Source: a phage
DNA: 64,000 bases
Reading direction: 5' to 3' (one strand)
NCBI GenBank assembly: GCA_036253495.1
Contig: GCA_036253495.1_4125.1
Positions 3,593 to 52,808 of this stretch are shown here, piece after piece. A model generated the notes under the pieces. It searched no databases, had not been told where the DNA came from, and saw nothing but the letters and a program-made list of their open reading frames with translations. A program made the translations under genes and the position numbers. Every line of letters begins with the position of its first letter. The stretch's first letter is position 1.

Positions 3593-3604
3593 CTGGAGGT
3601 GATT

Positions 3605-8901: not shown

Positions 8902-9276
8902 TTATGCTTTTTTACGTAGGATGTATTGTCCATTATGTAATTTAATTTTGTGAATCATGTACATAGTGCAAAACCCTTCAATACCTGCTTCTTCATCTTT
9001 CAATTTAATGAAGAAAGTATTATCTCTTAGGCTTTCTACAAGGCTTTCATCTGAATCTTCGAAATTCATGATATATGAATCTTTATTTCTATACACCATC
9101 TGAACATATTCATAAACCTTACCGCTTTCATCGATTAGATCATAAGTATGTGCTGAACGTTGTTTTAAAATATATAGTTTACCAAGAATAGCTGCTCCAT
9201 TAATTTTAGCACCAGTAATTTCGATACCATTAATAGAAAAAGGAAGTCTTCCGGTTAATGCAATTGGTTTACCCAT
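8902..9276 (-). CDS. paralog A of inverted cassette (shared N-terminal domain only)
   Basis: Shares LPF-x-I-GG-I, AKI-GxxL, LY-x-QRS-x-YDLI, IKL-NG motifs with the two neighbours; start set at MGKPIALTG by paralog alignment (track ORF extends to 9318). Confidence 0.5.
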   Translation of the reverse strand: MGKPIALTGRLPFSINGIEITGAKINGAAILGKLYILKQRSAHTYDLIDESGKVYEYVQMVYRNKDSYIMNFEDSDESLVESLRDNTFFIKLKDEEAGIEGFCTMYMIHKIKLHNGQYILRKKA

Positions 9277-9336
9277 TATTATTATACTTCTCCAAGTAAA
9301 GTGCATGATAATTTTCATGCACTATATTATTAAAAA

Positions 9337-11763
9337 TTAAGCACTGATTGTTACAGTTGCAGTATCAGTTTTATTGCCATTCGCAGTAGTCACTGTAATG
9401 ACTACAGTACCTTCTTCTAGAGCAGTTACTAATCCATCATCACTAATAGATACTTTAGTAGGTTCATCTGCACTATAAGTTACTGATTTGTTAGTTGCGT
9501 TAGCTGGAAGAACTTCTGGAACTAGTTGAACTGTTTTAGTACCTGATAGTGAAAGATCAGTGGCTTTAGGTGTTAAACCAACGCTGGATACTGGTACTGG
9601 AATATTAACAGTTACAGCACATTTTGCAGTTTTTGCACCATCAGTAGTTTTTACAGTGATATCAGCAGTACCGTTTGCAACAGCAGTGATTAAACCACTT
9701 GCACTAACAGTTGCGACCCCAGCAGCAGAAGTACTATAAGTTACTGCTTTGTTAGTTGCATTAGCTGGTAGTACAGTTGGTGTTAGTTGTTGAGTTGCAC
9801 CAACAGATGTTAAAGTTGCTGTTGTTGGAGAAACAGAAACACTAGCTACAGGAACTGGGATTGACACAGTAATGACACCTTGACCTGTTTTACCACTTCC
9901 ATCAGCGGCAGTTGCGATAATGTTTGCAGTACCGTTAGTTAACGCAGTTACAACACCAGTACTAGCATCAACTTTCGCTACAGCAGGTGCACTAGAAGAC
10001 CATGTTACAGCTTTATTAGTTGCGTTAGCTGGAAGAACTTCAGCAGCCATTGCTTGAGTTGCGTTAACAGCAGTCAATGTTTTAGTTGCTGGTGTAACAT
10101 TAATAGTTGTTACTGGAACTGGAATTGCTACAGTTACTGCACAAACCGCAGTTTTTGCACCATCAGCGGTTGTTACGGTGATGTTAGCAGTGCCATTTGC
10201 TACAGCAGTTATCAATCCTGAAGTGCTAACAGTTGCTACACCCGCATTAGAAGTACTATAAGTTACTGCTTTATTGGTTGCATTAGTTGGTGCAACCGAT
10301 GGTGTTAGTTGTTGTGTTGCACCAACAGATCTTAAAGTTGCTGTTGTTGGAGAAACAGAAACACCAGTTACTGGTACTGGAATATTAACAGTTACAGCAC
10401 AAACTTTACTAAAGCCACCATCAGCAGTAGTAGCCGTGATATTAGCAGTGCCATTCGCTACCGCAGTGATTAAACCACTTGTACTAACGGTTGCAACACC
10501 AGCAGCAGAAGTTGCGTATGTTACTGCTTTGTTACGAGCATTAGCTGGTAGAACAGTTGCAGTTAATTGCTGTGTTGCACCAACAGAAGTTAATGAAGCG
10601 GTTGCAGGTGTTAGGTTAATACCAGTTACTGGGATCGTCACATCAATAATTGATTGTGCGGTTTTTTCACCATCAATAGTTGTTACGGTAATAGTGGCAG
10701 TACCATTATTAACAGAAGTTACTAAACCGTCATCATCAACTTCTGCTACTGTAGGTGCAGAAGATTCATAACGAACTTCCTGATTTGATGCAGTTCTTGG
10801 TAGTACCGTTGCTGTTAATGGTTCATTTGCACCAATAGTAGTGAATGTATATGTTTCAGGTGTTAACGTAACACCAGTTACTGCTGTTTGAACTTTAATA
10901 GAAGAAGTATCAGTAAATGAACCATCTTCAGATGTTGCAGTAATAGTAACATCACCATTGGATACACCTGTTACCAACCCAGAATCTTTATCAACTGTTG
11001 CAACGGATGGAGCAGATGAAGTCCATATAACTTTCTTGTCTGTTGCTGAGGCCGGAGTAACTTCAGCTAACAATTGTTGAGTTGACCCAACGTTTACAGT
11101 TGCAGATTTAGGAGAAACGGTAACACCAGTAACACCAGTACTGACAACGATAGAACACACATCTGTGAAATCACCATCGTGAGTTGTTACGGTTACATCA
11201 GCATTGCCATTTGCAAGTGCAGTTGCTAGACCTGTTTGAGCATCAACTTCAACGATTGTAGGAGCAGATGAAGAGTAGGTTACTGCCTTGTCTTTTGCAT
11301 TAGATGGAACTACTTGGGCTGATAGTTGTTTTGTTGCACCAACTTTAAGAGATGCATCTTTGGGTGTAATTACAACACCAGTTACGGGGATATCAGCATT
11401 AACATAATCGCGTTTTACGATACGACCATTATTTAATTTAATAACACGACCCATATAAAGCATAGTATACCCCATGCTAATACCATCATCAACATAGATC
11501 ATGAATGAATTGTCTTGAACCATATTAATTGCGTCTGCTGGTTCAACAGAATTTGGAATGTCGATACCACGAGTATCATACCAACGCATGGAAACTTTGT
11601 AATAGATATCACCATTATCATTGATGAGATCATACACGTTACCGGAACGTTGACGGTTAATATATAAAGTTTCCGTTAACACCTTACCATCGATTTTAGC
11701 GACAGAAACTTTAATACCACCAATACCAAAAGGCAATTTACCTTCACTAGATATTGCTTTCAT
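9337..11763 (-). CDS. Ig-like (Big_2-type) repeat protein with paralog N-terminal domain
   Basis: 808 aa; N-terminal ~130 aa paralogous domain followed by at least 9 tandem ~88-aa repeats (VTGV..P....L.VG.T.QL...V.P.NAT.K.V.Y.SS...VATV...GL.TAV..G.A.IT..T.DG). Confidence 0.7.
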   Translation of the reverse strand: MKAISSEGKLPFGIGGIKVSVAKIDGKVLTETLYINRQRSGNVYDLINDNGDIYYKVSMRWYDTRGIDIPNSVEPADAINMVQDNSFMIYVDDGISMGYTMLYMGRVIKLNNGRIVKRDYVNADIPVTGVVITPKDASLKVGATKQLSAQVVPSNAKDKAVTYSSSAPTIVEVDAQTGLATALANGNADVTVTTHDGDFTDVCSIVVSTGVTGVTVSPKSATVNVGSTQQLLAEVTPASATDKKVIWTSSAPSVATVDKDSGLVTGVSNGDVTITATSEDGSFTDTSSIKVQTAVTGVTLTPETYTFTTIGANEPLTATVLPRTASNQEVRYESSAPTVAEVDDDGLVTSVNNGTATITVTTIDGEKTAQSIIDVTIPVTGINLTPATASLTSVGATQQLTATVLPANARNKAVTYATSAAGVATVSTSGLITAVANGTANITATTADGGFSKVCAVTVNIPVPVTGVSVSPTTATLRSVGATQQLTPSVAPTNATNKAVTYSTSNAGVATVSTSGLITAVANGTANITVTTADGAKTAVCAVTVAIPVPVTTINVTPATKTLTAVNATQAMAAEVLPANATNKAVTWSSSAPAVAKVDASTGVVTALTNGTANIIATAADGSGKTGQGVITVSIPVPVASVSVSPTTATLTSVGATQQLTPTVLPANATNKAVTYSTSAAGVATVSASGLITAVANGTADITVKTTDGAKTAKCAVTVNIPVPVSSVGLTPKATDLSLSGTKTVQLVPEVLPANATNKSVTYSADEPTKVSISDDGLVTALEEGTVVITVTTANGNKTDTATVTISA
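9400..10780 (-). repeat. tandem ~261-264 bp DNA repeats encoding Ig-like domains
   Basis: Near-identical segments such as GTTACTGCTTTGTTAGTTGCATTAGCTGGTAG recur at about 9478, 9738, 10003, 10261, 10520. Confidence 0.65.
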
Positions 11764-11829
11764 ATACTTTCCTTTATAAATTGTATTGTAGTGTTATATT
11801 ATTTATATTATACCAAAAGTATTTTAGGA

Positions 11830-11857
11830 TTAAAAAAAGGAGTCCGAAGACTCCTTA
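11830..11857 (-). terminator. intrinsic terminator (minus strand) downstream of 11868-12383
   Basis: Hairpin AAGGAGTC-CGAA-GACTCCTT followed on the minus strand by a U-run. Confidence 0.55.
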
Positions 11858-11867
11858 AAATATAAAG

Positions 11868-12383
11868 TTATTGGAAACGAGCATACGGTGGGAATCTGGT
11901 TTGGTCAGGCCAATCTTTCGGAGAGAAGTAAGCAGTGAATTGCATTTTATCATTTGAATAAAGAACAAAATCATCTGGCTTTATTATAACTTTAGACAAC
12001 GAATTTGGCTCCACGTTCGTTCTTCTGAAAATTATTTCACCATTATGTAATTTTATTTTATTACTTTGATATTGAATACCAAAACCATACTTATTATTAA
12101 TAGCATCAGCTTCTTTTATGCAAAATGTATTATTTGCTAAAGATTTAGCAATTTCAGCATCGTCATCATCATACAACAATGTTGATTTATCTTTATTTCT
12201 ACCTGTGATTTTTATATCTTTGTAAATCTTGAAATTTTCAGATATTAAATCATATGAATCGAATGTTCTTTGTTTTATAACATACAATTCTTTAACAAAT
12301 ACTTGCCCTTCTATCTTTGCAGCAGTAACCTGCAATCCACCTATAACAAATGGAAATTGATCTAAGCCAGCTATTGGTTTCAT
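11868..12383 (-). CDS. paralog C of inverted cassette
   Basis: 171 aa; shares N-terminal domain with 8902-9276 and 9337-11763; SD AAGGAGATG on minus strand. Confidence 0.55.
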   Translation of the reverse strand: MKPIAGLDQFPFVIGGLQVTAAKIEGQVFVKELYVIKQRTFDSYDLISENFKIYKDIKITGRNKDKSTLLYDDDDAEIAKSLANNTFCIKEADAINNKYGFGIQYQSNKIKLHNGEIIFRRTNVEPNSLSKVIIKPDDFVLYSNDKMQFTAYFSPKDWPDQTRFPPYARFQ

Positions 12384-12581: not shown

Positions 12582-13187
12582 ATGAAACGAATCTTGAAAG
12601 AGATTGTACAAACCGTTGTTTTAATCGCTGCATTAAACTTTCCGGCAGCGGCAGAAGTTTCAAAAAAATCATCTGTTTTTCTATTAAATGAACATGTTGT
12701 GTCAATTGATGGTGAACTAAATGATGAAACTGTACAAGAAGTGAAGAAGTTGTGGAAAGAAACAAGATTTAAAATTTTAACAATTACATCACCTGGTGGA
12801 GATTTTGATGCAGGATTAGATTTGGGATTGTTTGTGGCTGCTAAAAAGTTAACTGTTTATGTCCCAAAGCAATGTAATTCGTCTTGTAGTCTGGTTTTTT
12901 TCTCTGCATCATCTGAACGTAGGGATATGAGTGATACCGCAGTGATGGGTTTACATAACATCTCACTAGTATCTACGAATGGTGCAGATCCAGATACGAC
13001 ATTCGTTTCAGTTAGACAGTTGATGGAGTTTACACATCAAGTCTCAACTAAAGTTGGGTATCTTTTTACACTGTACGCACATAACGGTATCCCCGCTGAA
13101 ACACTCATTGATATCAGTACTAAACATGGTGAGGATATCGTTGTCTTACGAAGATCAGATCTCGTTAAATGGGGAATCATTCAATAA
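12582..13187 (+). CDS. secreted ClpP/S49-like protein (putative protease, catalytic residues uncertain)
   Basis: N-terminal signal-peptide-like segment; ITSPGGDFDAGLDLGLF resembles the ClpP/SppA SPGG motif. Confidence 0.45.
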   Translation: MKRILKEIVQTVVLIAALNFPAAAEVSKKSSVFLLNEHVVSIDGELNDETVQEVKKLWKETRFKILTITSPGGDFDAGLDLGLFVAAKKLTVYVPKQCNSSCSLVFFSASSERRDMSDTAVMGLHNISLVSTNGADPDTTFVSVRQLMEFTHQVSTKVGYLFTLYAHNGIPAETLIDISTKHGEDIVVLRRSDLVKWGIIQ

Positions 13188-13314
13188 AAAGTTGTATTTT
13201 TTATGAAGCAATGATATAATCCTAATACTAATTCATGATTTTGGTTAAGGGTGGTGTACTGCCACCCGATTTTAAGATATAATGGTTGTACATTATCAAC
13301 CAAGGAAACAAAAA

Positions 13315-13578
13315 ATGACAGAATTATCACATCTTCAAGGCTGGACAGAGTTCATCTTCTATGCTACTATAGTTACATATGGAATCATTGTTCTTTTATC
13401 AGTGATTATGGCAAGTGATTTCAAGAGTGGTTTTCTTGAAGAAAATGGTGAGTTTTCTTCTAAAACTGAAAAGTACTTTTATTATTTCTTTAAAATTTCG
13501 TATACAATTTTACTCATAATTTTGGGTTTACTATTGTATTTCATGTACACAATCTTAGATGTAATGCATCTTTTATAA
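13315..13578 (+). CDS. small membrane protein
   Basis: Two hydrophobic helices; ATG at 13315 with SD AAGGAAA (track start 13282). Confidence 0.35.
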   Translation: MTELSHLQGWTEFIFYATIVTYGIIVLLSVIMASDFKSGFLEENGEFSSKTEKYFYYFFKISYTILLIILGLLLYFMYTILDVMHLL

Positions 13579-13589
13579 CGGAGATATCA

Positions 13590-14192
13590 ATGACTTGTAT
13601 TATTGCTTACACTGATGGTAACACATCTTTTATCGCGGGTGACAAACTGGGTAGTAATGGTTTCACTAAAGCAATTCAAACTGAACCAAAAGTGTTTGAA
13701 AAAGAATTCATCAAAATCGATGAAAGTGGATTGAATCGCACCAAAGAAGTTATGGCAATGGGATACACGTCGAGCTTCCGCATGGGACAATTGCTGACGT
13801 ATAAACTTGATTTACCTGAACAGCAATCAAACCAAACATTCTCACAGTACTTAGTACTTGAGGTAATCCCACGTATTCGCACACTCTTCAAAGAAGAATG
13901 GGGTGCTCGTGATACAACTCAAGACGTTGGTGGTGGACAGTTTATTATTCTCCACAATCATACAATTTATGAAGTTCAAGAGGATTTTTCAGTACTCCAA
14001 CCTAAGACACAAATTACATCTGTTGGTAGTGGTACATATCATGCAATTGCAGCTATGCAAGCATATATTGAAGTTCAAAAAGAAACAGGTGTTAAGATGG
14101 TTGATCGCACCGATTCTATCTTCAAAATTGTAAGTGATAATGTTACCAGCGTTAGTGCTGAGTATGATTTACTAAGCTATCCTAAGCTGTAA
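13590..14192 (+). CDS. HslV/proteasome-like Ntn-hydrolase family protein
   Basis: N-terminus MTCIIAYTDGNTSFIAGD resembles HslV TTIV...IAGDG; later ITSVGSGTYHAIAAMQA resembles HslV GSGG.YA.AAA. Confidence 0.5.
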   Translation: MTCIIAYTDGNTSFIAGDKLGSNGFTKAIQTEPKVFEKEFIKIDESGLNRTKEVMAMGYTSSFRMGQLLTYKLDLPEQQSNQTFSQYLVLEVIPRIRTLFKEEWGARDTTQDVGGGQFIILHNHTIYEVQEDFSVLQPKTQITSVGSGTYHAIAAMQAYIEVQKETGVKMVDRTDSIFKIVSDNVTSVSAEYDLLSYPKL

Positions 14193-14199
14193 TACAAAA

Positions 14200-14226
14200 A
14201 AGGGGATTCTTATAATCCCCTATATT
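14200..14226 (+). terminator. intrinsic terminator-like hairpin (GGGGATT-CTTAT-AATCCCC)
   Basis: Perfect 7-bp stem after stop of 13590-14192; weak U-tract. Confidence 0.45.
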
Positions 14227-14252
14227 AATTTAATAAGGAGAGTATTATAACT

Positions 14253-14465
14253 ATGATAACTATCAATTACTTTTCACTATGCTTTGTTTATTTTGTTGTT
14301 GTATTTCTAGCAGTTGTAGCGTACAATAATATTAAATGTATATATAAAATTATCAAAAACAAAGAGAAATTCAATGGATGGATGATATATCACATTGTCA
14401 TCTCGGTTGTGTGTATCTTATTTGTATACGATTTGAGTTCATTAGGTACAGTAGGTAAGCTATGA
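14253..14465 (+). CDS. small membrane protein
   Basis: 70 aa, hydrophobic; stop overlaps start of Sir2 gene. Confidence 0.35.
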   Translation: MITINYFSLCFVYFVVVFLAVVAYNNIKCIYKIIKNKEKFNGWMIYHIVISVVCILFVYDLSSLGTVGKL

Positions 14466-15214
14466 TTTCTGACTCTTTTATAAAAAATAAAGGTAATAAA
14501 CGTGTATTGGTTATTTCCGGTGCAGGTCTATCCGTTGAAAGTGGGATGGAACCGTTTCGCATGGACGATGGCCTATGGGATCAATTTCAAATAAATGATG
14601 TATGTAACATTGCACGTCTTAGTACTAAGTATCATTTAGTACACACTTTCTATAATACATTACGTGTTAAAATGAAAGATTGTGTTCCTAATGATATGCA
14701 TTATTATATCAAATCTATAGAAGATACATACGGTGATAACTTTTTACATATGACTTCGAATATGGATGATCTCTATACTCGTATTGGTGGCAATGAATTA
14801 AAGTTACATGGTAATTTAAAAGAAGTTATTGAGAATTTTACAATTGGTGGTGACGATTATAGTATTGTGGATTGTGGTTATGAACCGTACATTCCGAAAG
14901 AAGGTGTCTTTGCGAAACCAAACGTAGTGTTCATTGGTGAATATTATCGTTATGTTGATGGTGAAAAACTCCCAATATACGATGAGCGTAATTTAGTATT
15001 GCAATCCTTAACAGAAGATGATACAGTTGTAGTCATTGGTAGCAGTGACACAGTACTGAAATGGTCACATCTGGTTGCGTGTTTACCATGCTTTAGTGTT
15101 AATATCAACATCAGAAAAAATGATAACGATTTCATGTTCAATGAAAAAATTATAAAACCAGCTACAAAAGCGATTCCAGTACTGGAAACTATCATTAAGG
15201 ATAGAATGAAATGA
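14462..15214 (+). CDS. Sir2-family (sirtuin-like) NAD-dependent protein
   Basis: Motifs GAGLSVESGMEPFR, TSNMDDLY, LHG, PNVVFIGE, IGSSDTV in sirtuin order; no Zn-ribbon CxxC seen. Confidence 0.7.
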   Translation: MISDSFIKNKGNKRVLVISGAGLSVESGMEPFRMDDGLWDQFQINDVCNIARLSTKYHLVHTFYNTLRVKMKDCVPNDMHYYIKSIEDTYGDNFLHMTSNMDDLYTRIGGNELKLHGNLKEVIENFTIGGDDYSIVDCGYEPYIPKEGVFAKPNVVFIGEYYRYVDGEKLPIYDERNLVLQSLTEDDTVVVIGSSDTVLKWSHLVACLPCFSVNINIRKNDNDFMFNEKIIKPATKAIPVLETIIKDRMK

Positions 15215-15759
15215 TTCGAGAAGTACCTCTAGGTGAGTATGGTAAACGAGCAAACTTTGTATTCTGTTACTTCTTTGCTCGAAATTGTAACCCATATAAA
15301 GGTTATGATTTAAATGATATCCCTGTTGTGAATCTGGTATTACTCCAGCTTCGTTGGGATGGTTTACTGGGTGGTTGTGGTGGAACAGTTGAAGATACCG
15401 ATGCCACCTTAGAAGATGCACTATTCCGTGAAATTCAGGAAGAGATGGATTATAATATTTTCATCGAACAACTGAAACCATTGAAAACTTACGAACTATA
15501 TCCAGGAGCACATACTCATAGCTATAGTTATGAAGTTACTTACGAAGAATTGAAAGCGATTCGCGATGGATACTGTACTGCTAAACATGCAAGTGCAGAA
15601 GTGGCTGGTGTTAATTTATGTCACATTTCTCGTTATTCAAAGGGACAAAACCGAGAAGCAGGATATAATAATCTTATGACACAAAACTTCATAGGAACTG
15701 CTAAAATGGAATTAGAACATCTTGTTCAATCCGAGAATTTACTGATTAGTTACTTATAA
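15211..15759 (+). CDS. hypothetical protein with divergent Nudix-like box
   Basis: GGTVEDTDATLEDALFREIQEE approximates the Nudix box with one extra residue; ATG overlaps Sir2 stop (ATGA). Confidence 0.4.
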   Translation: MIREVPLGEYGKRANFVFCYFFARNCNPYKGYDLNDIPVVNLVLLQLRWDGLLGGCGGTVEDTDATLEDALFREIQEEMDYNIFIEQLKPLKTYELYPGAHTHSYSYEVTYEELKAIRDGYCTAKHASAEVAGVNLCHISRYSKGQNREAGYNNLMTQNFIGTAKMELEHLVQSENLLISYL

Positions 15760-15770
15760 GGTGAATTATA

Positions 15771-16103
15771 ATGTCTTACTCAATGTTTCTGGATGATATT
15801 CGTGATCCTGAAAAGTATTATCCAAATCAAAACATGGTTTTATGTCGTGATTATGAAAGTGCATGTGCTTATGTAAATGAACATGGTTTACCACAATTTA
15901 TTAGCTTCGATCATGACTTAGGTGATGTTGGGGAGGATGAAAAAACAGGGTATTCATTTGCAAAATTTCTAATTGATTATATGGTCGAAAACAATATCAG
16001 TACTGGATTCGATTATATTATTCATAGCAGTAATCCTGTAGGGAAGGTCAACATTGACACATACTTACAGAATGGTTTTAGATTTTTGAGAGGGGACAAT
16101 TGA
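15771..16103 (+). CDS. hypothetical protein
   Basis: 110 aa ORF, SD AAGGTG. Confidence 0.45.
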   Translation: MSYSMFLDDIRDPEKYYPNQNMVLCRDYESACAYVNEHGLPQFISFDHDLGDVGEDEKTGYSFAKFLIDYMVENNISTGFDYIIHSSNPVGKVNIDTYLQNGFRFLRGDN

Positions 16104-16399
16104 CAAAACATCATATACAAAGCTTTATAATCACAAGTGTTATATTTCTTGTTGTGTTTTGGTTCTTCTATCATCAAGATCAAACCAAGCACCGAAATAT
16201 ATACTACCGTACTGCTGTTGTTACTGACATAGGGCAGTGTGAAGAAAATACATGTTCATTTACTTATAAGACTGAAGATGGGTCTATTAAGTATGGAGCA
16301 TCAAGGAAACCAGTTTCAGTTGGGCAAATTGTTTACAATGAATGCTGGACAGAAAAGGCTCGCGGTCACCGCTGCTACGTTGACTATGAGCCACAATAA
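16100..16399 (+). CDS. hypothetical membrane protein (TTG start)
   Basis: 99 aa, N-terminal TM helix; TTG start overlapping upstream stop. Confidence 0.35.
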   Translation: MTKHHIQSFIITSVIFLVVFWFFYHQDQTKHRNIYYRTAVVTDIGQCEENTCSFTYKTEDGSIKYGASRKPVSVGQIVYNECWTEKARGHRCYVDYEPQ

Positions 16400-16463
16400 G
16401 AAGTGTCTGAGTCTATAATCTACCGTAGAGCACAAGGATGTGCTCATAACTCAAGGATGTTTT

Positions 16464-17903
16464 ATGAAAAAATACACAATTGACACAAACGTACTACTAT
16501 CCGATCCAAATGCAACCGTAGCATTTGATGGGGCAGCAGTGATTCTACCATTCACTGTTCTTGAAGAACTTGATTCAATCAAGAGCCGTAATGTTGACGT
16601 ATCACGTGATGCACGTTTCGCAATCCGTAACATCGATGCAATTCTGAAAGATGCTACTCATGAAGAAATCAGCAGTACTGGTGTTAATATTGCCAATATC
16701 CACAAAAATATGGATGCATCCAGTAAGCTATTCGTTATGACGAATGAAGAAGCTGAAGCACTTATTCGTATGGGCGGCAGTGAAGATAAAGTAGAAACTC
16801 TACTTAAAAGTACTGTACCAGATGACAAAATCATTCTAGTGGCTTTGGCATCACAATCAGTACTGGTAACTCGCGACATTAACATGCGTATCAAAGCAAT
16901 GAGCTACGGTGTTGAGGTACAAGATTACCGTCATGACGTTGCAATCGAAGATAGTGAGTTGATTCATATTGGTCAGCACCACCTTGATATTGATTTCTGG
17001 AAAACATTCAGTGAAGTTAATAATGCTGAAATTAAATCCCAACAAGAAGGTCGCCGTCTATATCACTATATTCCAACCGCATTGATTCAAGATGTTCTAC
17101 CAGATAATCTATGTATTGGTGATTATCTATATGATAATGCTGATGTACTATTCGTATACGAAGGTCAATCTGCTATCGAAGAAGAAGACGGTTCACTAAC
17201 ACCTGAAGATATTTTGGTATTCCAGGATATTGGTCAAAGTATCGCTCTTCGTGCTAAAGTTTGGGATATTAAAGCAAAGAATATTCAACAGGCACTAGCA
17301 ATTAACAGTATTCTTGACCCTGATGTACATTTGACAGTACTACTCGGTTCAGCAGGTACTGGTAAAACATTGATTACTGTTGCTACTTCACTCGAATTAG
17401 TGCTGGAAAAACGTAAATACGATCGTATAATCTTCTCCAAAACACAAGATTCTCAATTTGAAGAAATTGGTTTCTTGCCTGGTTCTGAAGCTGAAAAGGT
17501 CATCCCATTCTGTGGGGCTGCAATCGATGCTCTAGAGTATCTACACAAAGATGATGCTAACCCACAAGGTAGCATTGAAGAGATTCTCAAACGTAACGTA
17601 ATGCAGTTTAAAGCATTGAACTTTATTCGTGGTCGTTCTTTCACTAATACAATTCTAATTGTAGATGAATTCCAGAACATCACCCCTGCACAGGCAAAGA
17701 CTATTCTTACCCGTGCTGGACAAAACTGTAAGGTTATCATTATGGGTAACTTAGCACAGATTGATAGTAAGTTTATTAGTCCAGTGAACAGTGGTTTGAC
17801 ATATGTAACTGAAAAATTCAAAGATTGGGAAGGTTGCCGTATCATTGAATTGGAAGGTGTAGTACGTTCTGCACTCGCTGAGTTTGCAGAAGAAAATATG
17901 TAA
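16464..17903 (+). CDS. phoH: PIN-domain / PhoH-like ATPase fusion
   Basis: N-terminal PIN-like segment KKYTIDTNVLL; Walker A LLGSAGTGKTL; ATG at 16464 preferred over track start 16440. Confidence 0.78.
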   Translation: MKKYTIDTNVLLSDPNATVAFDGAAVILPFTVLEELDSIKSRNVDVSRDARFAIRNIDAILKDATHEEISSTGVNIANIHKNMDASSKLFVMTNEEAEALIRMGGSEDKVETLLKSTVPDDKIILVALASQSVLVTRDINMRIKAMSYGVEVQDYRHDVAIEDSELIHIGQHHLDIDFWKTFSEVNNAEIKSQQEGRRLYHYIPTALIQDVLPDNLCIGDYLYDNADVLFVYEGQSAIEEEDGSLTPEDILVFQDIGQSIALRAKVWDIKAKNIQQALAINSILDPDVHLTVLLGSAGTGKTLITVATSLELVLEKRKYDRIIFSKTQDSQFEEIGFLPGSEAEKVIPFCGAAIDALEYLHKDDANPQGSIEEILKRNVMQFKALNFIRGRSFTNTILIVDEFQNITPAQAKTILTRAGQNCKVIIMGNLAQIDSKFISPVNSGLTYVTEKFKDWEGCRIIELEGVVRSALAEFAEENM

Positions 17904-17910
17904 TCTATTA

Positions 17911-17939
17911 TTGACATTAAATGTGTTCATTGCTATAAT
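17911..17939 (+). promoter_or_regulatory. consensus sigma70-type promoter (TTGACA-17nt-TATAAT)
   Basis: TTGACA 17911-17916, 17-nt spacer, TATAAT 17934-17939; inverted repeat GTGTTCAT/ATGAACAC straddles the -10. Confidence 0.6.
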
Positions 17940-23554: not shown

Positions 23555-24496
23555 ATGCAAATAGATAAATTATATACGGACGTAACTAACTTCCTCAACC
23601 AGAGTAACGCTGATTTAACAAATGAAAATGCAAATAAAGACGCTAAATGTGTTAATACACATCGTGATTTATTGGCAGGTATTCTTTCTAAACATTATTC
23701 CCAAGATGTGATTCCTGATGAATTGATGAAGTGGCATAATGAAGGTTACGGTCATATTCATGATTTAGACTATTACATTAGCCCATTAACAAACTGTTGT
23801 TTAGTTAATTATCCTGATATGCTTGCTAATGGCTTCATGATTGGTTGTGCCAAGATTGAAGAACCAAAAAGCTTTGGGGTAGCTTGTACAGTACTAACAC
23901 AGATTGTTCAGGCTGTGGCAAGTTCACAGTACGGTGGTCAGTCGTTGGCTCACATTGACACTGGCCTTGCACCATATGTACAAAAGTCATGGGATAAACT
24001 TCTAGAAAAACAAAAGAAATACAATCTTAGTACTGAATTCATCGAAGATGAGTTGCGTAAGGAAGTTTATGACGGTTGTCAAACAATTCTATATCAAACA
24101 AACTCAATGATCAGTACTAATGGTCAGGCTGCGTTCATTTCTTTGAGTTTAGGATTAGGTACATCTAAATTTGAAAAACTAATCACTGAACAATATTTGA
24201 AAGTACATGAAAATGGACTAGGTAAAGATAAGATTACTCCAGTATTTCCTAAAGTAATATTCTTTCTTCAGGATGGAATTAATATGAATACCAATGATAC
24301 TAACTATGATCTTAAACAGTTAGCTATGCGTTGTGCATCAAAAAGAATCTATCCAGACTTTGTTTCTGTACCATTGAACCATAAAGTAACTGGAAGTACC
24401 AGTACTGCTGTTACTCCTATGGGATGCAGAAGCTTCTTAGGTAAATGGGAAGATGAAAATGGCAACGAACAGTACAATGGCCGTTTCAATTTGGGT
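23555..24496 (+). CDS. nrdD: anaerobic ribonucleoside-triphosphate reductase NrdD, exon 1
   Basis: N-terminal NrdD-like region ending ...PMGCRSFLGKWEDENGNEQYNGRFNLG, matching the E. coli NrdD segment PMGCRSFLG...NLG recalled from memory; exon end placed at T24496. Confidence 0.72.
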
Positions 24497-35246: not shown

Positions 35247-35648
35247 ATGGATCTTGATGATGTGTATAGCACCATAAGACAGATGGATTCGTATAAAAAA
35301 GTATATAGTGGTTACAAGAGTGATAAACAATTTTATGGAATCGGGGAGTATGATGTAATATCATTCGAATACGATGATACTGGTGAAAGTTCCATTAATA
35401 TTGTTTGTCCTCGTGACCGTGAAAATAACTTCATGTACGTTGAAATCAATAATGATGGTTTACACTTTACTAAAATATTAAATGGTGGCAAACAATCTAT
35501 TTCTCTGGATTTATCCGAAGAAGAAAAGTTCTTTCAAGAAGATACTATAATCAATCTAGGTTTTAGTTTATCAGAATACAAAGTTCTTCATAAAGATTTC
35601 ATGAAGTACTATAATGGGTTTCTTAAGGAGCTAACATTACATCTATGA
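35247..35648 (+). CDS. hypothetical protein
   Basis: 133 aa ORF. Confidence 0.45.
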   Translation: MDLDDVYSTIRQMDSYKKVYSGYKSDKQFYGIGEYDVISFEYDDTGESSINIVCPRDRENNFMYVEINNDGLHFTKILNGGKQSISLDLSEEEKFFQEDTIINLGFSLSEYKVLHKDFMKYYNGFLKELTLHL

Positions 35649-36886
35649 ATAATAACAAATTTCTTGAACAAACAATTGTGAAGCACTTAGCAGGTTCACA
35701 AGCGTATGGAACCAGTACACCTGAAAGTGATACGGATTATCGTGGTATTTTTCTTGCTAACAAAGAGTTCATTCTGACACCTTTTTATAATGTAAAAGAA
35801 GTTTCTGATTCAAGAGAAGAAGATACTAAATTCTATGAACTAAACCAGTACTTAAGACTATACACAGAGGCTAACCCAAATATCCTTGAATCACTATGGG
35901 TTGATCCTGAACACATCGTAGAAAGTACTGAAATCTATGATTATCTACGTACATTCAATCAACAATTACTTAGTTCTAAGATCGCATTCTCTTATACCGG
36001 TTATGCATATAATCAGGTTAAACGTATGTCCAATCACCACGGGTGGATGGATAAAGAGCGTATTGCTGAAAAACGTCTAAATGAAATCTTAGAAGATTTT
36101 CCTGTAGATGAAACTTTAGCATGGATGTATGAAAACTTCCCACACTATTTGGTAGAACGTTTAGATACTTCTAAACTACATCCATTTAATGCTAAGAAAA
36201 TAGATTTTGAAAAATACATGCGTGATACTTCATTGCAGTTAGTTTCGACTCATCCGTTGAAACAGTATCATTTTGTACGTTTAGTACATAATTACAGTAC
36301 TGATAAAGTACTAGACCGTGATTTCAACTTATTGGATTATAACAATGGGTACGAATTAATTCATTACGGTGAAAATATCTTTGGTGTTATTATCAATCCT
36401 AATGAAAGTACAATTAACGCTGATGGTTCTTTACGTTATTTCAACAAAGAACGCAGTACTGAAGAATTGAAAGTGCGACCTGAACTCATTGTTAAATTCA
36501 ATGAAAAAGAATACAGTGAGAACAGTGAGAACCGTAAAAGTTATCACAAATGGAAAGAGAATCGTAATGCTAAACGTGCAATTCTTGAATCCAAACACGG
36601 CTACGATTGCAAACATGCTATGCATACGATCAGACTTTTGAATACAGCCGAAGAAGCATTACAAAGCGGTATTATCCTTGTTAAACGTCCTGATGCTGAT
36701 ATGCTAATGGATATCCGCAACGGTAAATGGAAGTATGAAGAAGTCATGGATTATTTCAATGAAAAGGTTGACTATATCCGCAATGTGGTGTATCCTAAGT
36801 CAGTTCTACCAAAGAAACCAAACATTCAACTAGCTGCAAAAGTTCTAATCGATATTCGAGAAATGCAGTGGTATGGTAAAAAATAA
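35645..36886 (+). CDS. nucleotidyltransferase-fold protein (Pol-beta superfamily)
   Basis: Classic motif HLAGSQAYGTSTPESDTDYRGIF (GS-x10-DxD); 413 aa with large C-terminal extension. Confidence 0.55.
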   Translation: MNNNKFLEQTIVKHLAGSQAYGTSTPESDTDYRGIFLANKEFILTPFYNVKEVSDSREEDTKFYELNQYLRLYTEANPNILESLWVDPEHIVESTEIYDYLRTFNQQLLSSKIAFSYTGYAYNQVKRMSNHHGWMDKERIAEKRLNEILEDFPVDETLAWMYENFPHYLVERLDTSKLHPFNAKKIDFEKYMRDTSLQLVSTHPLKQYHFVRLVHNYSTDKVLDRDFNLLDYNNGYELIHYGENIFGVIINPNESTINADGSLRYFNKERSTEELKVRPELIVKFNEKEYSENSENRKSYHKWKENRNAKRAILESKHGYDCKHAMHTIRLLNTAEEALQSGIILVKRPDADMLMDIRNGKWKYEEVMDYFNEKVDYIRNVVYPKSVLPKKPNIQLAAKVLIDIREMQWYGKK

Positions 36887-49736: not shown

Positions 49737-49872
49737 TTGGAGGCTTTATGATTGCAATGTTAGAAGAAGATTGGGGTGTTTCTGAACAAGGAACCGACGA
49801 ATATCAAGTTCCAGAATACAAGCCAAAAGGCTTCTGGGAAAGTCTGCGTGATTGGTTGATGGGAGAATAAGA

Positions 49873-50985
49873 ATGAAAAAATACCTTGTTGGTGGATACT
49901 GCCGCGACCGTCTAATGGGCATTCGTGCAAAGGACAAAGATTATGTCATTGTTGGTGCAACTGAATCTGATATAAAATACTTAGAAAGTATTGGATATAA
50001 ACAGGTTGGTAAAGATTTTCCAGTTTATCTAAGCCCAGAAGGTAACGAACACGCATTAGCCCGTACTGAACGAAAAACTGGTACTGGATACGGTGGCTTC
50101 GAAGTGGATACAAAAGGTGTAACACTGGAACAAGATTTGTATCGTCGTGATCTTACAATTAATGCAATCGCGTATGATCCAGTACTGCAAATTCACATCG
50201 ACCCATACGGTGGTAAAGCTGATATCAAGAATAAAGTACTACGCCATGTATCCGAGCACTTCAAAGAAGATCCATTGCGTGTATTACGTCTAGCTCGCTT
50301 TGCTACGCGTTATTCTGATTTCTCTATACACGAGACTACTGAAGCACTTGCAATCGATATGGTAGCGTCTGGTGAGCTAAATCACCTTGTTCCAGACCGT
50401 GTTTATGTTGAATTTGAAAAGGCATTGTCAGAAGAGAAGCCAGCTAAGTTCCTTAAAACACTAAGTAAGTTGGGTTACTATGAAAAAGCATTTAATGCTA
50501 CATTAACCAAAAAGTCATTGGAACTCATTGATCATATCTCTGATAATTGTACTGAAGCATATAAGCCATATTTCTTATGGTCTGTGCTTCTTGAGAAAGA
50601 AGAAGTTGGCGAGGATTCAGTACTGAATGGTGCTATTAAAATGCCCGTTAAGTACGTTAAATTCAGTAATTACATCAAACGTTTCCGTGATGATATCAAG
50701 GCATTCCGTAAAAAGACCCCAAATGAAATGGGACAATTATTACTGGATATGAATATCAAGAATAACGGCGGTGAAGAATTCCTTTACAAAGTACTGGAAT
50801 ATTTTATTCTACGTAAAGAGATTGATTTAGACCTTGAAGATTTAATCATTAAGGTATATGATCGTTACACTGATGTAGTACTTCCAGATATTCAACAACT
50901 GGTAAAAGACGGTGAGTTAGAAGCATCTGAAATCCGTGATTTTGTTTCAGATTTACGTTGTGAAGCAATTCAACAAATGTTTTAA
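49873..50985 (+). CDS. tRNA nucleotidyltransferase (CCA-adding enzyme) family protein
   Basis: Head-domain motif YLVGGYCRDRLMGIRAKDKDYV (GG.xRD..LG....D.D); ATG at 49873 after GGAG. Confidence 0.7.
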   Translation: MKKYLVGGYCRDRLMGIRAKDKDYVIVGATESDIKYLESIGYKQVGKDFPVYLSPEGNEHALARTERKTGTGYGGFEVDTKGVTLEQDLYRRDLTINAIAYDPVLQIHIDPYGGKADIKNKVLRHVSEHFKEDPLRVLRLARFATRYSDFSIHETTEALAIDMVASGELNHLVPDRVYVEFEKALSEEKPAKFLKTLSKLGYYEKAFNATLTKKSLELIDHISDNCTEAYKPYFLWSVLLEKEEVGEDSVLNGAIKMPVKYVKFSNYIKRFRDDIKAFRKKTPNEMGQLLLDMNIKNNGGEEFLYKVLEYFILRKEIDLDLEDLIIKVYDRYTDVVLPDIQQLVKDGELEASEIRDFVSDLRCEAIQQMF

Positions 50986-52328: not shown

Positions 52329-52808
52329 ATGATACATGAACATAGCGGCAATCTGTTTGATTTATTCAGTACTGTTACTGATGATCAAACCGCGTTGCAT
52401 ATAATCGCTCATGGTTGTAATGCACAGGGTAAGATGGGTTCGGGTTTTGCAAAAGAATTAAGAAAGCGTCACCAATTGGCATATGATGTGTATCATACAC
52501 GTTATACCAATCAGAATGGTTTGAAATTGGGTGAAGTTGTCTATGCAGCACCAAATAATAACTTAATTATTGCAAACTGCATTACACAAGAGTATTATGG
52601 TAATGATGGTAAGAAGTATGTAAGTTATGATGCGATTGACCTTGCATTTAACTCGATGAATGAATTCATTAAAAATGAACCACAAGAGATCCATGTACAC
52701 TTCCCGAAAATTGGAGCCGATTTAGGCGGTGGTAACTGGAACGTTATCAAAGAAATCATTGACCACAGGCTGGTTAATGCTGAAAAACATTTATATATTC
52801 TCAAATAA
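52329..52808 (+). CDS. macro-domain-like protein (tentative)
   Basis: TALHIIAHGCNAQGKMGSGFAKEL loosely resembles the macro-domain ADP-ribose-binding segment. Confidence 0.4.
   Translation: MIHEHSGNLFDLFSTVTDDQTALHIIAHGCNAQGKMGSGFAKELRKRHQLAYDVYHTRYTNQNGLKLGEVVYAAPNNNLIIANCITQEYYGNDGKKYVSYDAIDLAFNSMNEFIKNEPQEIHVHFPKIGADLGGGNWNVIKEIIDHRLVNAEKHLYILK

What the first reader, a model, noticed from the sequence alone, without database searches (positions are those of the whole stretch)
14253..15759. Phage-encoded Sir2-family protein translationally coupled to a divergent Nudix-like protein
ORF 14462-15214 has the sirtuin motif series (GAGLSVESGMEPFR, TSNMDDLY, LHG, PNVVFIGE, IGSSDTV) but no Zn-ribbon cysteines. 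Its stop overlaps the start (ATGA) of a protein with a degenerate Nudix-like box, and a small membrane protein gene overlaps its start. Sir2 enzymes consume NAD+ and Nudix enzymes hydrolyse ADP-ribose-type products; a macro-like protein (52329-52808) and a canonical Nudix (51059-51488) lie elsewhere in the window. Together this suggests a phage module acting on NAD+ or ADP-ribose, for example countering NAD-depleting defences or modifying host proteins.
Basis: partly seen in the sequence, partly recalled or inferred. Interest (0 to 1): 0.6.

Follow-up and report, generated by a model that had tools for sequence, protein, structure and literature searches.

The report
Jumbo-phage Sir2–Nudix–cREC–PhoH operon
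An E. coli jumbo phage carries a six-gene operon with a zinc-less sirtuin, a NUDT16-type Nudix hydrolase, a predicted cyclic-phosphate esterase and an RNA helicase/nuclease; comparative genomics described this cluster in 2022 as a predicted NAD+-dependent RNA-repair system, and its real activity has never been tested.

Summary
In detail: the ORFs, the sirtuin motifs, the missing Zn cysteines and the ATGA overlaps are all there. The window is an Asteriusvirus jumbo phage, 98.9% identical here to Escherichia phage A4. The Sir2 is a confident CobB-like fold with an intact catalytic N100/D102/H116. The Nudix is not degenerate: it is a NUDT16-family enzyme with RExxEE intact. The unit is larger than reported: small membrane protein, Sir2, Nudt16-like Nudix, cREC, membrane protein, PIN-PhoH. 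This block is conserved across Rak2-like jumbo phages. The tight, conserved coupling is Nudix–cREC (fused in half of the loci), not Sir2–Nudix; one lineage lacks Sir2. The Zn-less sirtuin clade also sits beside RNA ligase, kinase and cREC in rV5-like phages and beside a HAD RNA-repair phosphatase in T5-like phages. Iyer et al. 2022 (PMC9503650) already described this neighbourhood and predicted a Tpt1/KptA-like role for the sirtuin. I found no experimental test. The distal macro and Nudix genes are 36 kb away, next to a CCA-adding enzyme. Verdict: a real feature, already described computationally, biochemically unresolved.

The parts
14201..14221 (+). Terminator-like hairpin (8-bp stem) between the HslV-like protease gene and the operon; likely upstream boundary of the unit
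   Evidence: sequence. The T-run on the + strand is weak, so this is a boundary marker only
14253..14465 (+). Small two-TM membrane protein (70 aa); its stop overlaps the Sir2 start (ATGA)
   Evidence: A divergent 64-aa two-TM counterpart sharing YNNxKCxY sits at the same place in phage 121Q. No family hit. Absent in GAP32-type relatives
14462..15214 (+). Zn-less sirtuin (Sir2 family, CobB-like fold), 250 aa; catalytic N100, D102, H116; GAG loop at 20-33
   Evidence: Pfam PF02146 E=4.6e-19; CobB 1s5p E=4e-21; AF2 pLDDT 91.4; Foldseek top hit CobB, TM 0.77; invariant residues; clade traits
15211..15759 (+). NUDT16-family Nudix hydrolase, 182 aa; R73, E74, E77, E78 invariant
   Evidence: PF22327 E=4.9e-19; human NUDT16/X29 E~1e-13; AF2 pLDDT 77; top 39 PDB fold hits all NUDT16/X29/TIRR; alignments
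15771..16103 (+). cREC (cyclic-phosphate processing receiver-like) protein, 110 aa; D8, D9, D47, D49, H85, N88, P89 invariant
   Evidence: PF20274 E=4.7e-22; alignment A3 across jumbo and rV5-like phages; fused to the Nudix in 9 of 18 related loci
16100..16399 (+). Single-TM membrane protein (99 aa) with a Cys-containing C-terminal part; start overlaps the cREC stop (TTGA)
   Evidence: phrog_14661 E=1e-34; KD hydropathy; conserved in all jumbo relatives at 37-52% identity; absent in L172/L173
16440..17903 (+). PIN-PhoH (PhoH2-type) protein: PIN endoRNase domain plus PhoH ATPase. The likely true start is the ATG at 16464, as annotated in phage A4
   Evidence: PF13638 E=1.2e-21 and PF02562 E=1e-43; A4 annotation; 69-86% identity across relatives
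17911..17939 (+). Perfect sigma-70 consensus promoter (TTGACA-17-TATAAT with TG) directly after the PhoH stop; marks the start of the next unit and so the downstream boundary
35645..36886 (+). RlaP (RNA-ligase-associated Pol-beta nucleotidyltransferase); unlinked, but shows that the phage carries RNA-repair genes. Lies about 5 kb from the block in L172
   Evidence: PF10127 E=1.8e-16; L172 context
49852..50985 (+). CCA-adding tRNA nucleotidyltransferase; heads the distal cluster that holds the canonical Nudix and the macro gene
   Evidence: PF01743 and PF12627
51072..51488 (+).
   Evidence: PF00293 E=2.2e-12
52329..52808 (+). Macro-domain protein of the BT1257/Poa1p type; not linked to the Sir2 operon
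   Evidence: PDB 2fg1/2afc E~1e-15, macrodomain 5e3b E=2e-10, yeast ADP-ribose 1''-phosphate phosphatase 6lfu E=4.7e-4; Pfam Macro only E=0.003, below cutoff

Best explanation
The finding is part of a six-gene operon (14253-17903) of a Rak2-like jumbo coliphage. It most likely forms an NAD+-consuming module that works on RNA ends and clears the ADP-ribose by-product. Proposed order (published prediction of Iyer et al. 2022, which my data are compatible with): an RNA cut by a metal-independent nuclease carries a 2',3'-cyclic phosphate. A cyclic phosphodiesterase (cREC) opens it, leaving a 2'-phosphate. [quoted passage not shown] PIN-PhoH supplies RNA unwinding and cleavage. SHOWN here: domain identities, intact catalytic residues, confident folds, operon structure, conservation of the block, Nudix-cREC fusion, and linkage of this sirtuin clade to RNA-repair enzymes in three phage lineages. 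INFERRED: every substrate, the reaction order, and that the sirtuin acts on RNA at all.
For: Operon anatomy: three 4-nt overlaps, an 11-nt and a 40-nt spacer, a hairpin upstream and a consensus promoter downstream. Block Sir2-Nudt16-cREC-membrane-PIN-PhoH is kept in every jumbo relative that extends past the Sir2 gene, with Sir2 identity down to 38%, while the upstream genes vary. It also occurs in a more distant 237-kb lineage (L172). Nudix-cREC are always 11 nt or less apart, overlapping, or fused (9/18 loci; about 22 of 56 protein clusters), which argues for consecutive steps on one substrate. The Zn-less, Gln-less sirtuin clade is shared by jumbo, rV5-like and T5-like phages. Its neighbours are Metallophos / T4-type RNA ligase / cREC / AAA_33 kinase in rV5-like phages and HAD_SAK_2 ('Swiss Army Knife RNA repair') in T5-like phages. 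50 of 71 Zn-less loci have such a partner within 4 kb, against 0 of 5 Cys4 sirtuin loci. NUDT16 has solved complexes with ADP-ribose, di-ADPR and FAD. The cREC acidic pocket is invariant. The phage carries RlaP and a CCA-adding enzyme and a Poa1p-like macro domain; its near-identical relative A4 has T4-type Rnl1 and Pnkp about 20 kb upstream. The published prediction is in PMC9503650 sec. 3.7.3. Chemistry (established knowledge): Tpt1 and sirtuins both displace nicotinamide from NAD+ with an oxygen nucleophile and then use the ribose 2''-OH.
Against: There is no experimental evidence for any step. The sirtuin's nearest sequence and structure relatives are protein deacylases (CobB, Sir2Af, SIRT5), and residues lining the CobB acyl pocket are largely kept (Y64, C48 for A76, M101 for I131). 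The neighbourhood evidence comes from only 3-4 independent lineages, and 21 of 71 Zn-less loci show no RNA-repair partner. Sir2 is dispensable for the Nudix-cREC-PhoH core (L173), and Rak2-type Sir2 has a degenerate NAD loop. In this phage the RNA ligase and Pnkp are 20 kb away, and T4-type Pnkp leaves no 2'-phosphate, so a Tpt1-like step is not obviously needed. The host has its own KptA (own knowledge). In relatives the adjacent '2H' gene is an Acb1 anti-CBASS family member and NAMPT lies next to it, which fits an anti-defence island as well as it fits RNA repair.
Confidence: 0.4

Rival explanations
1. The sirtuin is a CobB-like protein lysine deacylase (deacetylase or desuccinylase) that reprogrammes host or phage proteins early in infection. 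The NUDT16-like Nudix, with cREC, removes the O-acyl-ADP-ribose or ADP-ribose product.
For: Best sequence and fold matches are CobB, Sir2Af1/2 and SIRT5. NCBIfam deacylase models hit at E 1e-26 to 1e-9, all far below their cutoffs. Catalytic N/D/H, the GAG loop, the FGE-type loop and Y64 of the class III acidic-acyl motif are kept. Nudix enzymes are known to hydrolyse O-acetyl-ADP-ribose (own knowledge; PMC4004948 abstract). No PADLOC defence-type Sir2 hit.
Against: The whole clade has lost the Zn ribbon cysteines, the Gln of TQN and the GTSxxVxPA substrate-staple motif, which every cellular sirtuin in the comparison keeps at least in part. That points to a changed substrate. Gene partners are RNA-end enzymes, not protein-modification genes. 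The model gives no role to cREC or PIN-PhoH.
Confidence: 0.25
2. It is a counter-defence module. Nudix and cREC (with or without Sir2) destroy ADP-ribose-derived or cyclic-nucleotide immune signals or toxic NAD+ breakdown products, as part of an anti-defence island that in relatives also holds NAD+ salvage (NARP2-type NAMPT and NMNAT) and Acb1.
For: In GAP32/CBB/Serratia BF-type relatives and in L172 the order is NMNAT-Nudix / NAMPT / Acb1 / Sir2 / Nudt16 / cREC / PIN-PhoH. Acb1 Pfam E=1.2e-15. Iyer et al. propose that phage Nudix, Macro and similar domains counter low-molecular-weight ADPr signals. Distant Nudt16-like genes sit among early host-takeover genes in Aeh1.
Against: A catalytically intact sirtuin consumes NAD+, the opposite of what a phage facing NAD+ depletion needs. 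This window has no NAMPT or Acb1 homologue. The only PADLOC hit is a weak one for the Nudix (PDC-S07, E=2e-4) and none of the other five proteins hits. No known immune signal is a demonstrated substrate of NUDT16-type or cREC enzymes. Adjacency in one phage family may be simple synteny.
Confidence: 0.15
3. The functional core is Nudix-cREC-PIN-PhoH acting as an RNA 5'-end decapping and turnover module (NAD-, FAD-, dpCoA- or ADPr-capped RNA, as for mammalian NUDT16). The sirtuin is an accessory or independent neighbour.
For: NUDT16/X29 are RNA decapping enzymes, and the fold match is exclusive to that family. Phage T4 NudE.1, a different Nudix family, decaps NAD-RNA in vitro and T4 RNAs are NAD-capped. 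The core persists without Sir2 in L173. [quoted passage not shown] Nudt16-like genes occur alone in Aeh1 and LAh_9.
Against: It does not explain the recurrent Nudix-cREC fusion, since decapping produces no cyclic phosphate. It does not explain why the same sirtuin clade is linked to cREC and RNA ligase in rV5-like phages without any Nudt16-like gene.
Confidence: 0.15

Closest known systems
Sirtuin-centred predicted NAD+-dependent RNA-repair neighbourhood, type 1 (Serratia phage BF and other jumbo phages), Iyer, Burroughs, Anantharaman & Aravind 2022, Viruses 14:1977 (PMC9503650, sec. 3.7.3)
   Same: Same phage group (Rak2-like). Same genes in the same order: sirtuin, Nudix, cREC, PIN-domain protein. 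Serratia phage BF itself is among my related loci (357,154 bp).
   Different: In this window Nudix and cREC are separate genes rather than fused. The 2H gene, which I find to be Acb1-family, and NAMPT are absent. A small two-TM gene overlaps the Sir2 start. The paper does not assign the Nudix to the NUDT16 family (0 mentions), does not note the conserved membrane protein, and does not note that Sir2 can be missing.
E. coli CobB / human SIRT5 (class III sirtuin protein deacylases)
   Same: Rossmann fold, GAGxSxESG loop, N/D of the nicotinamide pocket, catalytic His, FGE-type loop; TM 0.77 and 28-29% identity to CobB.
   Different: No Zn-binding cysteines: a same-sized ribbon with conserved D-x-G-Y instead. 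S/T/A in place of the Gln of TQN. GSSDTVLKW in place of GTSGxVYPA. The Y+3 Arg of the acidic-acyl motif is shifted to Y+4 in jumbo phages.
Tpt1/KptA - cyclic phosphodiesterase (2H/Cpd1) - Poa1p macro pathway of tRNA splicing/repair
   Same: [quoted passage not shown] A Poa1p-like macro domain is present elsewhere in the window.
   Different: None of the fold families is shared: sirtuin instead of the Tpt1 ART fold, cREC instead of 2H, Nudix instead of or in addition to macro. This is a functional analogy only, and it is untested.
Human NUDT16 / Xenopus X29 (U8 snoRNA decapping enzyme; ADP-ribose, IDP and NAD/FAD-cap hydrolase)
   Same: Fold (TM about 0.75), family-specific Nudix box spacing, catalytic RExxEE.
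   Different: 26-28% identity. The terminal Gly of the box is not kept. Phage context, frequent C-terminal cREC fusion. Substrate unknown.
T4 NudE.1 (phage Nudix; ADPr/Ap3A/FAD/NAD hydrolase, NAD-RNA decapping in vitro)
   Same: Phage-encoded early Nudix acting on adenosine-diphosphate-X compounds.
   Different: Not the same family. T4 NudE hits only the generic NUDIX model, and hhalign aligns just 56 columns around the box.
PhoH2 (PIN-PhoH) RNA helicase/RNase proteins of mycobacteria
   Same: Same two-domain architecture.
   Different: Phage-encoded. Operonic with Nudix-cREC instead of an antitoxin. Activity untested.

Membership tests
Sirtuin (Sir2) superfamily | Rossmann-fold NAD+-binding domain with the GAGxSxxxG(I/V)PxFR loop | tested here: met
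   GAGLSVESGMEPFR at 20-33; Pfam SIR2 covers 20-198 (E=4.6e-19); AF2 pLDDT 91 with CobB as best fold match
Sirtuin (Sir2) superfamily | Catalytic His and the Asn/Asp of the nicotinamide (C) pocket | tested here: met
   H116, N100 and D102 align to the CobB HG and QNID motifs and are invariant in 21 sequences
Sirtuin (Sir2) superfamily | Cys4 zinc ribbon in the small domain | tested here: not met
   One Cys (C138) in the ribbon region. The whole phage clade has 0-1 Cys there, with D-x-G-Y instead. All cellular sirtuins aligned keep CxxC...CxxC
Sirtuin (Sir2) superfamily | NAD+-dependent deacylase, ADP-ribosyltransferase or NADase activity | not testable with these tools
   Needs enzyme assays
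Defence-type Sir2 NADases (ThsA, DSR, Sir2-HerA, SPARSA) | Match to defence-system Sir2 profiles and a partner sensor domain or gene | tested here: not met
   No PADLOC hit; no SLOG, HerA or Ago partner in the operon; fold matches are housekeeping deacylases
NUDT16 / X29 family of Nudix hydrolases (PF22327) | Nudix fold with closest similarity to NUDT16/X29 | tested here: met
   PF22327 E=4.9e-19, 69 bits against a cutoff of 27. Top 39 PDB fold hits are NUDT16/X29/TIRR at E~1e-12; the next family is at E=3.6e-6
NUDT16 / X29 family of Nudix hydrolases (PF22327) | Catalytic Nudix-box residues RExxEE (human R75, E76, E79, E80) | tested here: met
   R73, E74, E77 and E78 align to the human residues and are invariant in 15 sequences
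NUDT16 / X29 family of Nudix hydrolases (PF22327) | Hydrolysis of ADP-ribose, IDP or RNA caps | not testable with these tools
   Needs assays
cREC (PF20274) | Receiver-like domain with a conserved acidic pocket and no histidine-kinase partner | tested here: met
   PF20274 E=4.7e-22; D8, D9, D47, D49 invariant; no kinase in the neighbourhood
cREC (PF20274) | Cyclic-phosphate phosphodiesterase activity | not testable with these tools
   Predicted only; the source paper states that it is experimentally uncharacterised
Iyer et al. 2022 type-1 sirtuin RNA-repair neighbourhood | [quoted passage not shown] | tested here: met
Iyer et al. 2022 type-1 sirtuin RNA-repair neighbourhood | Linked 2H phosphoesterase | tested here: not met
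   No homologue of the relatives' 148-aa 2H/Acb1-like gene anywhere in the window (tblastn). It is present in L014-L027 and L172
Tpt1/KptA RNA 2'-phosphotransferase | Tpt1 (ART-type) fold and its catalytic R-H-R-R tetrad | tested here: not met
   The protein has a sirtuin fold. Any similarity is functional analogy, not membership
NARP1/NARP2/NARP3 NAD+ reconstitution pathways | NAMPT plus NMNAT, Adps plus Namat, or PnuC plus NadR genes | tested here: not met
   No NAMPT homologue in the window. NAMPT and NMNAT-Nudix are present only in relatives

The most novel reading that the evidence does not exclude
The Zn-less phage sirtuin is not a protein deacylase. It is a nucleic-acid-directed enzyme: an NAD+-dependent RNA 2'-phosphotransferase, a non-homologous analogue of Tpt1/KptA. 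[quoted passage not shown] That would be a new catalytic activity for the sirtuin fold and the first assigned activity for cREC.
Probability: 0.25. Interest if true: 0.8.

Novelty: already known. Interest (0 to 1): 0.35.

Why it matters
If the published prediction is right, sirtuins would gain an RNA substrate and phages would have a second, independently evolved way of removing 2'-phosphates during tRNA repair. cREC and phage NUDT16-like enzymes would also get their first biochemical roles. The locus is compact, the proteins are small and model well, and E. coli phages that carry it are in culture (A4, 121Q, PBECO4, T5, rV5-like Bas63), so the question can be tested directly. If the sirtuin turns out to be an ordinary deacylase, it would still be the first characterised phage sirtuin. 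Nothing about the existence or composition of the cluster is new. What this analysis adds is modest: the NUDT16-family assignment, Nudix-cREC-PhoH as the conserved core with Sir2 dispensable, the Acb1 identity of the neighbouring '2H' gene, and the clade-defining sequence changes of the sirtuin.

Tried and rejected
- **Defence-type Sir2 NADase:** rejected. No PADLOC hit and no sensor partner, and the fold matches are CobB and SIRT5.
- **Degenerate or inactive Nudix:** rejected. It has the NUDT16-type box with all catalytic residues.
- **T4 NudE.1 as the closest characterised phage homologue:** rejected. It belongs to a different Nudix family.
- **Macro and canonical Nudix as part of the same module:** rejected on linkage. 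They are 36 kb away, in a cluster with a CCA-adding enzyme and a glutaredoxin.
- **A divergent Sir2 in the 248-aa gene upstream of the Nudix in L173:** rejected (hhalign probability 0.1%, no Pfam hit).
- **RNA ligase, Pnkp, HAD_SAK, Acb1 or NAMPT homologues inside the window:** none found. Rnl1 and Pnkp lie just outside it in phage A4.
- **tRNA genes or Rfam RNAs in the window:** none.
- **Close bacterial relatives of the sirtuin:** none above 34% identity, and all are ordinary Cys4 sirtuins.
- **Experimental literature on phage sirtuins, the T5 Sir2 or sirtuin/Tpt1 links:** nothing found. PhageMaP on rV5-like Bas63 mentions only the Sir2-HerA defence system.
- **NARP3 and jumbo-phage NAD+ papers:** unrelated to this module.
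- It was repeated successfully.
Full report
**What the window is.** The region 13500-16500 is 98.9% identical to Escherichia phage A4 (ON286972, 355,528 bp, genus Asteriusvirus). It is 74-78% identical to other coliphages of 350-385 kb in the 121Q/PBECO4 group. In A4 the ORF at 14462-15214 is annotated 'Sir2-like protein' and its neighbours are 'hypothetical'. Other records already annotate the pair as Sir2 and NUDIX hydrolase.

**Checking the observation.** All three ORFs exist at the stated coordinates. The ATGA overlaps at 14462 and 15211 are real, and a third overlap (TTGA) joins the next two genes at 16100.
- The five quoted sirtuin motifs lie at residues 20-33, 98-105, 115-117, 153-160 and 192-198. 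Only one cysteine (C138) lies in the region where sirtuins carry a Cys4 zinc ribbon.
- Pfam SIR2 scores E=4.6e-19 and PHROG 2162 scores E=9e-72.
- The 70-aa ORF has two hydrophobic segments. A divergent 64-aa counterpart sharing a YNNxKCxY motif sits at the same place in 121Q.

**The sirtuin.** It aligns to E. coli CobB (1s5p, E=4e-21). GAGLSVESG matches GAGISAESG, TSNMDD matches TQNIDN, and LHG matches the catalytic MHG.
- G20, G22, N100, D102 and H116 are invariant in 21 homologues.
- An AlphaFold2 model is confident (pLDDT 91.4, pTM 0.89).
- Its best solved-structure matches are CobB (TM about 0.77, 28-29% identity), then archaeal Sir2Af and SIRT5.
- No defence-system profile matches.

I aligned jumbo, rV5-like and T5-like phage sirtuins with 14 bacterial sirtuins and CobB. 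This shows a sharply defined phage clade:
- All four zinc cysteines are lost. The ribbon segment keeps its length and acquires a conserved D-x-G-Y.
- The Gln of TQN becomes S, T or A.
- GTSGxVYPA becomes G(S/C)S(D/N)xV(I/L)x(W/F).

Every cellular sequence in the set keeps CxxC...CxxC. The closest bacterial genomic relatives are at most 34% identical.

**The Nudix.**
- Pfam places it in Nudt16-like (PF22327, E=4.9e-19, 69 bits against a cutoff of 27), ahead of generic NUDIX (E=5e-6).
- It aligns over 150 residues to human NUDT16 and Xenopus X29 (E about 1e-13 to 5e-11). R73/E74/E77/E78 sit on the human RELREE residues, with the same unusual spacing upstream of the box. These residues are invariant in 15 sequences.
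- The model is moderately confident (pLDDT 77, pTM 0.79).
- Its top 39 PDB matches are all NUDT16, X29 or TIRR (E about 1e-12, TM about 0.75). The next Nudix family appears only at E=3.6e-6.
- The second refutation criterion, no Nudix fold, is also not met.
- An exhaustive profile search of 1.84 billion cluster representatives finds 452 proteins at E<=1e-3 and only 3 at E<=1e-30. The family is small and the jumbo-phage clade is narrow.
- T4 NudE.1, which hydrolyses ADPr, FAD and NAD and decaps NAD-RNA in vitro, is not in this family.

**The unit is larger than reported.**
- Downstream follow a cREC domain protein (15771-16103, PF20274, E=4.7e-22), a single-TM protein (16100-16399, phrog_14661) and a PIN-PhoH protein (16440-17903; PIN_4 E=1.2e-21, PhoH E=1e-43).
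- A hairpin at 14201-14221 precedes the small membrane gene.
- A perfect TTGACA-17-TATAAT promoter at 17911-17939 follows the PhoH stop.
- With three 4-nt overlaps and spacers of 11 and 40 nt, this reads as one six-gene operon. That is inferred from the sequence, not shown by transcript data.

**Conservation.** I scanned 80 viral loci found with the sirtuin alignment and 9 found with the Nudix alignment.
- The block Sir2-Nudt16-cREC-membrane-PIN-PhoH is present in every roughly 350-kb Rak2-like phage locus that extends past the Sir2 gene. This includes Rak2, GAP32, CBB, Serratia BF and Yersinia fHe-Yen9-04. Sir2 identity falls to 38% and Nudix identity to about 50%, while the upstream genes differ.
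- The Sir2-to-Nudix junction is -4 nt only in the window and in 121Q. It is +2 to +11 nt in GAP32-type phages. It is +333 to +377 nt, with an inserted ORF, in two other groups.
- The Nudix-to-cREC junction is always 11 nt or less, overlapping, or a gene fusion (9 of 18 loci). Pfam confirms the fusion, and it accounts for about 22 of the 56 protein clusters.
- A more distant lineage (L173/L174, Nudix 39% identical) keeps Nudt16-cREC-PIN-PhoH. There the 248-aa gene in the Sir2 position is not a sirtuin (no Pfam hit; hhalign probability 0.1%).
- Still more distant Nudt16-like genes stand alone among early genes in Aeromonas phages Aeh1 and LAh_9.
- The conserved functional pair is therefore Nudix-cREC, joined by PIN-PhoH. 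Sir2 is a frequent partner but not an obligatory one.

**Partners of the sirtuin clade elsewhere.**
- In rV5-like phages the order is Metallophos, T4-type RNA ligase (PF09511), cREC, AAA_33 kinase, Sir2, ATP-dependent ligase.
- In T5-like phages Sir2 is followed by HAD_SAK_2, the 'Swiss Army Knife' RNA-repair phosphatase (E=4e-20).
- Of 71 loci with a Zn-less sirtuin, 50 have a cREC, Rnl1, PNK-type kinase, HAD_SAK_2 or Nudt16-like gene within 4 kb. None of the 5 loci with a Cys4 sirtuin does.
- These loci represent only three or four independent lineages, so the count is suggestive rather than statistical.

**Literature.**
- Iyer, Burroughs, Anantharaman and Aravind (Viruses 2022, PMC9503650, sec. 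3.7.3) describe exactly these three neighbourhood types. [quoted passage not shown]
- They propose that the sirtuin acts like KptA/Tpt1 in removing RNA 2'-phosphates, with the partners resolving cyclic phosphates or processing ADPr>p.
- cREC was defined in their 2021 jumbo-phage paper (PMC7824862) and is stated to be experimentally uncharacterised.
- Searches for experimental work on phage sirtuins or a sirtuin/Tpt1 link found nothing.
- The cluster is therefore already described, but only as a prediction.

**What my analysis adds or qualifies.**
1. The Nudix belongs to the NUDT16 family. That family has solved complexes with ADP-ribose, di-ADPR, FAD and IMP. The 2022 paper does not make this assignment.
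2. The core is Nudix-cREC-PhoH, and Sir2 is dispensable.
3. The '2H' gene adjacent to Sir2 in relatives scores as Acb1, the anti-CBASS phosphodiesterase family (PF23474, E=1.2e-15, against 2_5_RNA_ligase2 at E=3.5e-5, below its cutoff). NAMPT, and in L172 an NMNAT-Nudix gene as well, lie just upstream. That arrangement fits an anti-defence/NAD+ island as well as it fits RNA repair. None of these genes is in this window.
4. The phage does carry RNA-repair equipment. RlaP (35645-36886) and a CCA-adding enzyme (49852-50985) are in the window. A T4-type Rnl1 with its tRNA-specific C-terminal domain and a T4-type Pnkp lie about 20 kb upstream in the near-identical phage A4. T4-type Pnkp leaves no 2'-phosphate, so a Tpt1-like step is not obviously needed for that pathway.
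5. The distal macro protein is of the BT1257/Poa1p type. It matches yeast ADP-ribose 1''-phosphate phosphatase at E=4.7e-4. That is compatible with Appr-1''p metabolism, but the gene is unlinked.

**Mechanism and confidence.** I rank the published RNA-end/ADPr-by-product model first, at 0.4.
- It is the only model that gives every conserved gene a role.
- It explains the Nudix-cREC fusion as two consecutive steps on one small molecule.
- It explains the independent linkage of the same sirtuin clade to RNA ligase, kinase, cREC and HAD_SAK enzymes.
- The chemistry is plausible from established mechanisms. Both Tpt1 and sirtuins displace nicotinamide with an oxygen nucleophile and then use the ribose 2''-OH.

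The main rival, at 0.25, is a CobB-like protein deacylase with O-acyl-ADPr clearance. It rests on the sirtuin's nearest relatives and its largely conserved acyl-pocket residues. A counter-defence reading (0.15) and an RNA-decapping core with an accessory sirtuin (0.15) are not excluded. None of these can be separated without enzymology or genetics.

**Verdict.** The feature is real and the domain calls are correct. The emphasis on Sir2-Nudix coupling and on NAD-depletion defence is not well supported. The cluster is already in the literature as a computational prediction, so novelty is low. The unresolved biochemistry is what keeps it moderately interesting.

Noticed in passing
window 23555-26530: The anaerobic ribonucleotide reductase gene nrdD is in two pieces. 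23555-24523 covers Pfam NRDD positions 1-283. 25646-26530 covers positions 280-562 plus the glycyl-radical domain. They are separated by a 1.1-kb insert carrying a GIY-YIG/HTH homing-endonuclease ORF (24783-25622). The near-identical phage A4 has one continuous nrdD. No group I intron model matches even at E<=1, so it is either a 'genes-in-pieces' split by a free-standing endonuclease or a divergent intron.
   Followed up: partly
L014 3537-3983; L018/L023 around 2870-3750; L172 3953-4408: The '2H' gene next to Sir2 in GAP32/CBB/Serratia BF-type relatives is an Acb1 (anti-CBASS) family member by Pfam (E=1.2e-15). NAMPT (plus NMNAT-Nudix in L172) lies just upstream. Together they form an NAD-salvage / Acb1 / Sir2-Nudix-cREC-PhoH island. 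It is absent from this window.
   Followed up: partly
L013 3998-4738 (Klebsiella phage Rak2); proteins P0012, P0013: The Rak2/K64-1-type Sir2 has GNG instead of GAG and has lost the F32-R33 pair of the NAD-binding loop, while keeping N100/D102/H116. It may be inactive or may use a different cofactor.
   Followed up: no
L173/L174 4800-6014: In a divergent phage lineage the Nudt16-cREC-PIN-PhoH trio is preceded by 248-aa and 155-aa proteins with no Pfam hit and no similarity to Sir2. These may be a non-homologous replacement of the sirtuin.
   Followed up: partly
window 2516-3592: A 358-aa ORF with three CapR homology stretches lies between the ATP-dependent DNA ligase and the metallophosphoesterase. 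Phage A4 has no gene at that spot. Conversely, A4_535 (DUF4379/CapR, upstream of the CCA enzyme) has no counterpart in the window. So the window phage differs from A4 by gene-sized indels.
   Followed up: partly
window 52329-52808: The macro-domain protein is closest to the BT1257-type macrodomains and also matches yeast Poa1p (ADP-ribose 1''-phosphate phosphatase). It sits in a cluster with a CCA-adding enzyme, a canonical Nudix and a glutaredoxin-like protein.
   Followed up: partly
window 35645-36886: RlaP, the RNA-ligase-associated Pol-beta nucleotidyltransferase ('RNA repair pathway' family), is present. In L172 it lies only about 5 kb downstream of the Sir2 block.
   Followed up: no
window 26539-26871: A DUF4326 protein (E=5e-25) lies between nrdD and nrdG. 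Iyer et al. 2021 single out this domain as a predicted enzyme linked to NAD+-utilising systems.
   Followed up: no
L179 1543-2094 (Aeromonas phage Aeh1) and L180 4977-5522 (LAh_9): The Aeh1 gene annotated 'nudE' (next to rIIB, ndd, asiA) and LAh_9 gp19 are Nudt16-like Nudix proteins. T4 NudE itself is not. The 'nudE' label in Aeh1-type phages therefore covers a different Nudix family.
   Followed up: yes
window 17911-17939: A perfect extended sigma-70 promoter (TTGACA, 17 nt, TG-TATAAT) sits directly after the PIN-PhoH stop codon, ahead of a 62-aa lysine-rich ORF.
   Followed up: no
window 8902-12383 (- strand): Three consecutive minus-strand ORFs (138, 808 and 171 aa) share a similar N-terminal motif (G-x-LPF-x-IGG-[IL]-x-[VI]). 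They look like paralogues and are annotated in A4 as putative structural or hypothetical proteins.
   Followed up: no
window 12582-14192: Upstream of the operon lie a secreted ClpP/NfeD-like protease homologue (phrog_26024) and an HslV-like Ntn peptidase (phrog_1040). The HslV-like gene accompanies the Sir2 block in only some relatives.
   Followed up: no
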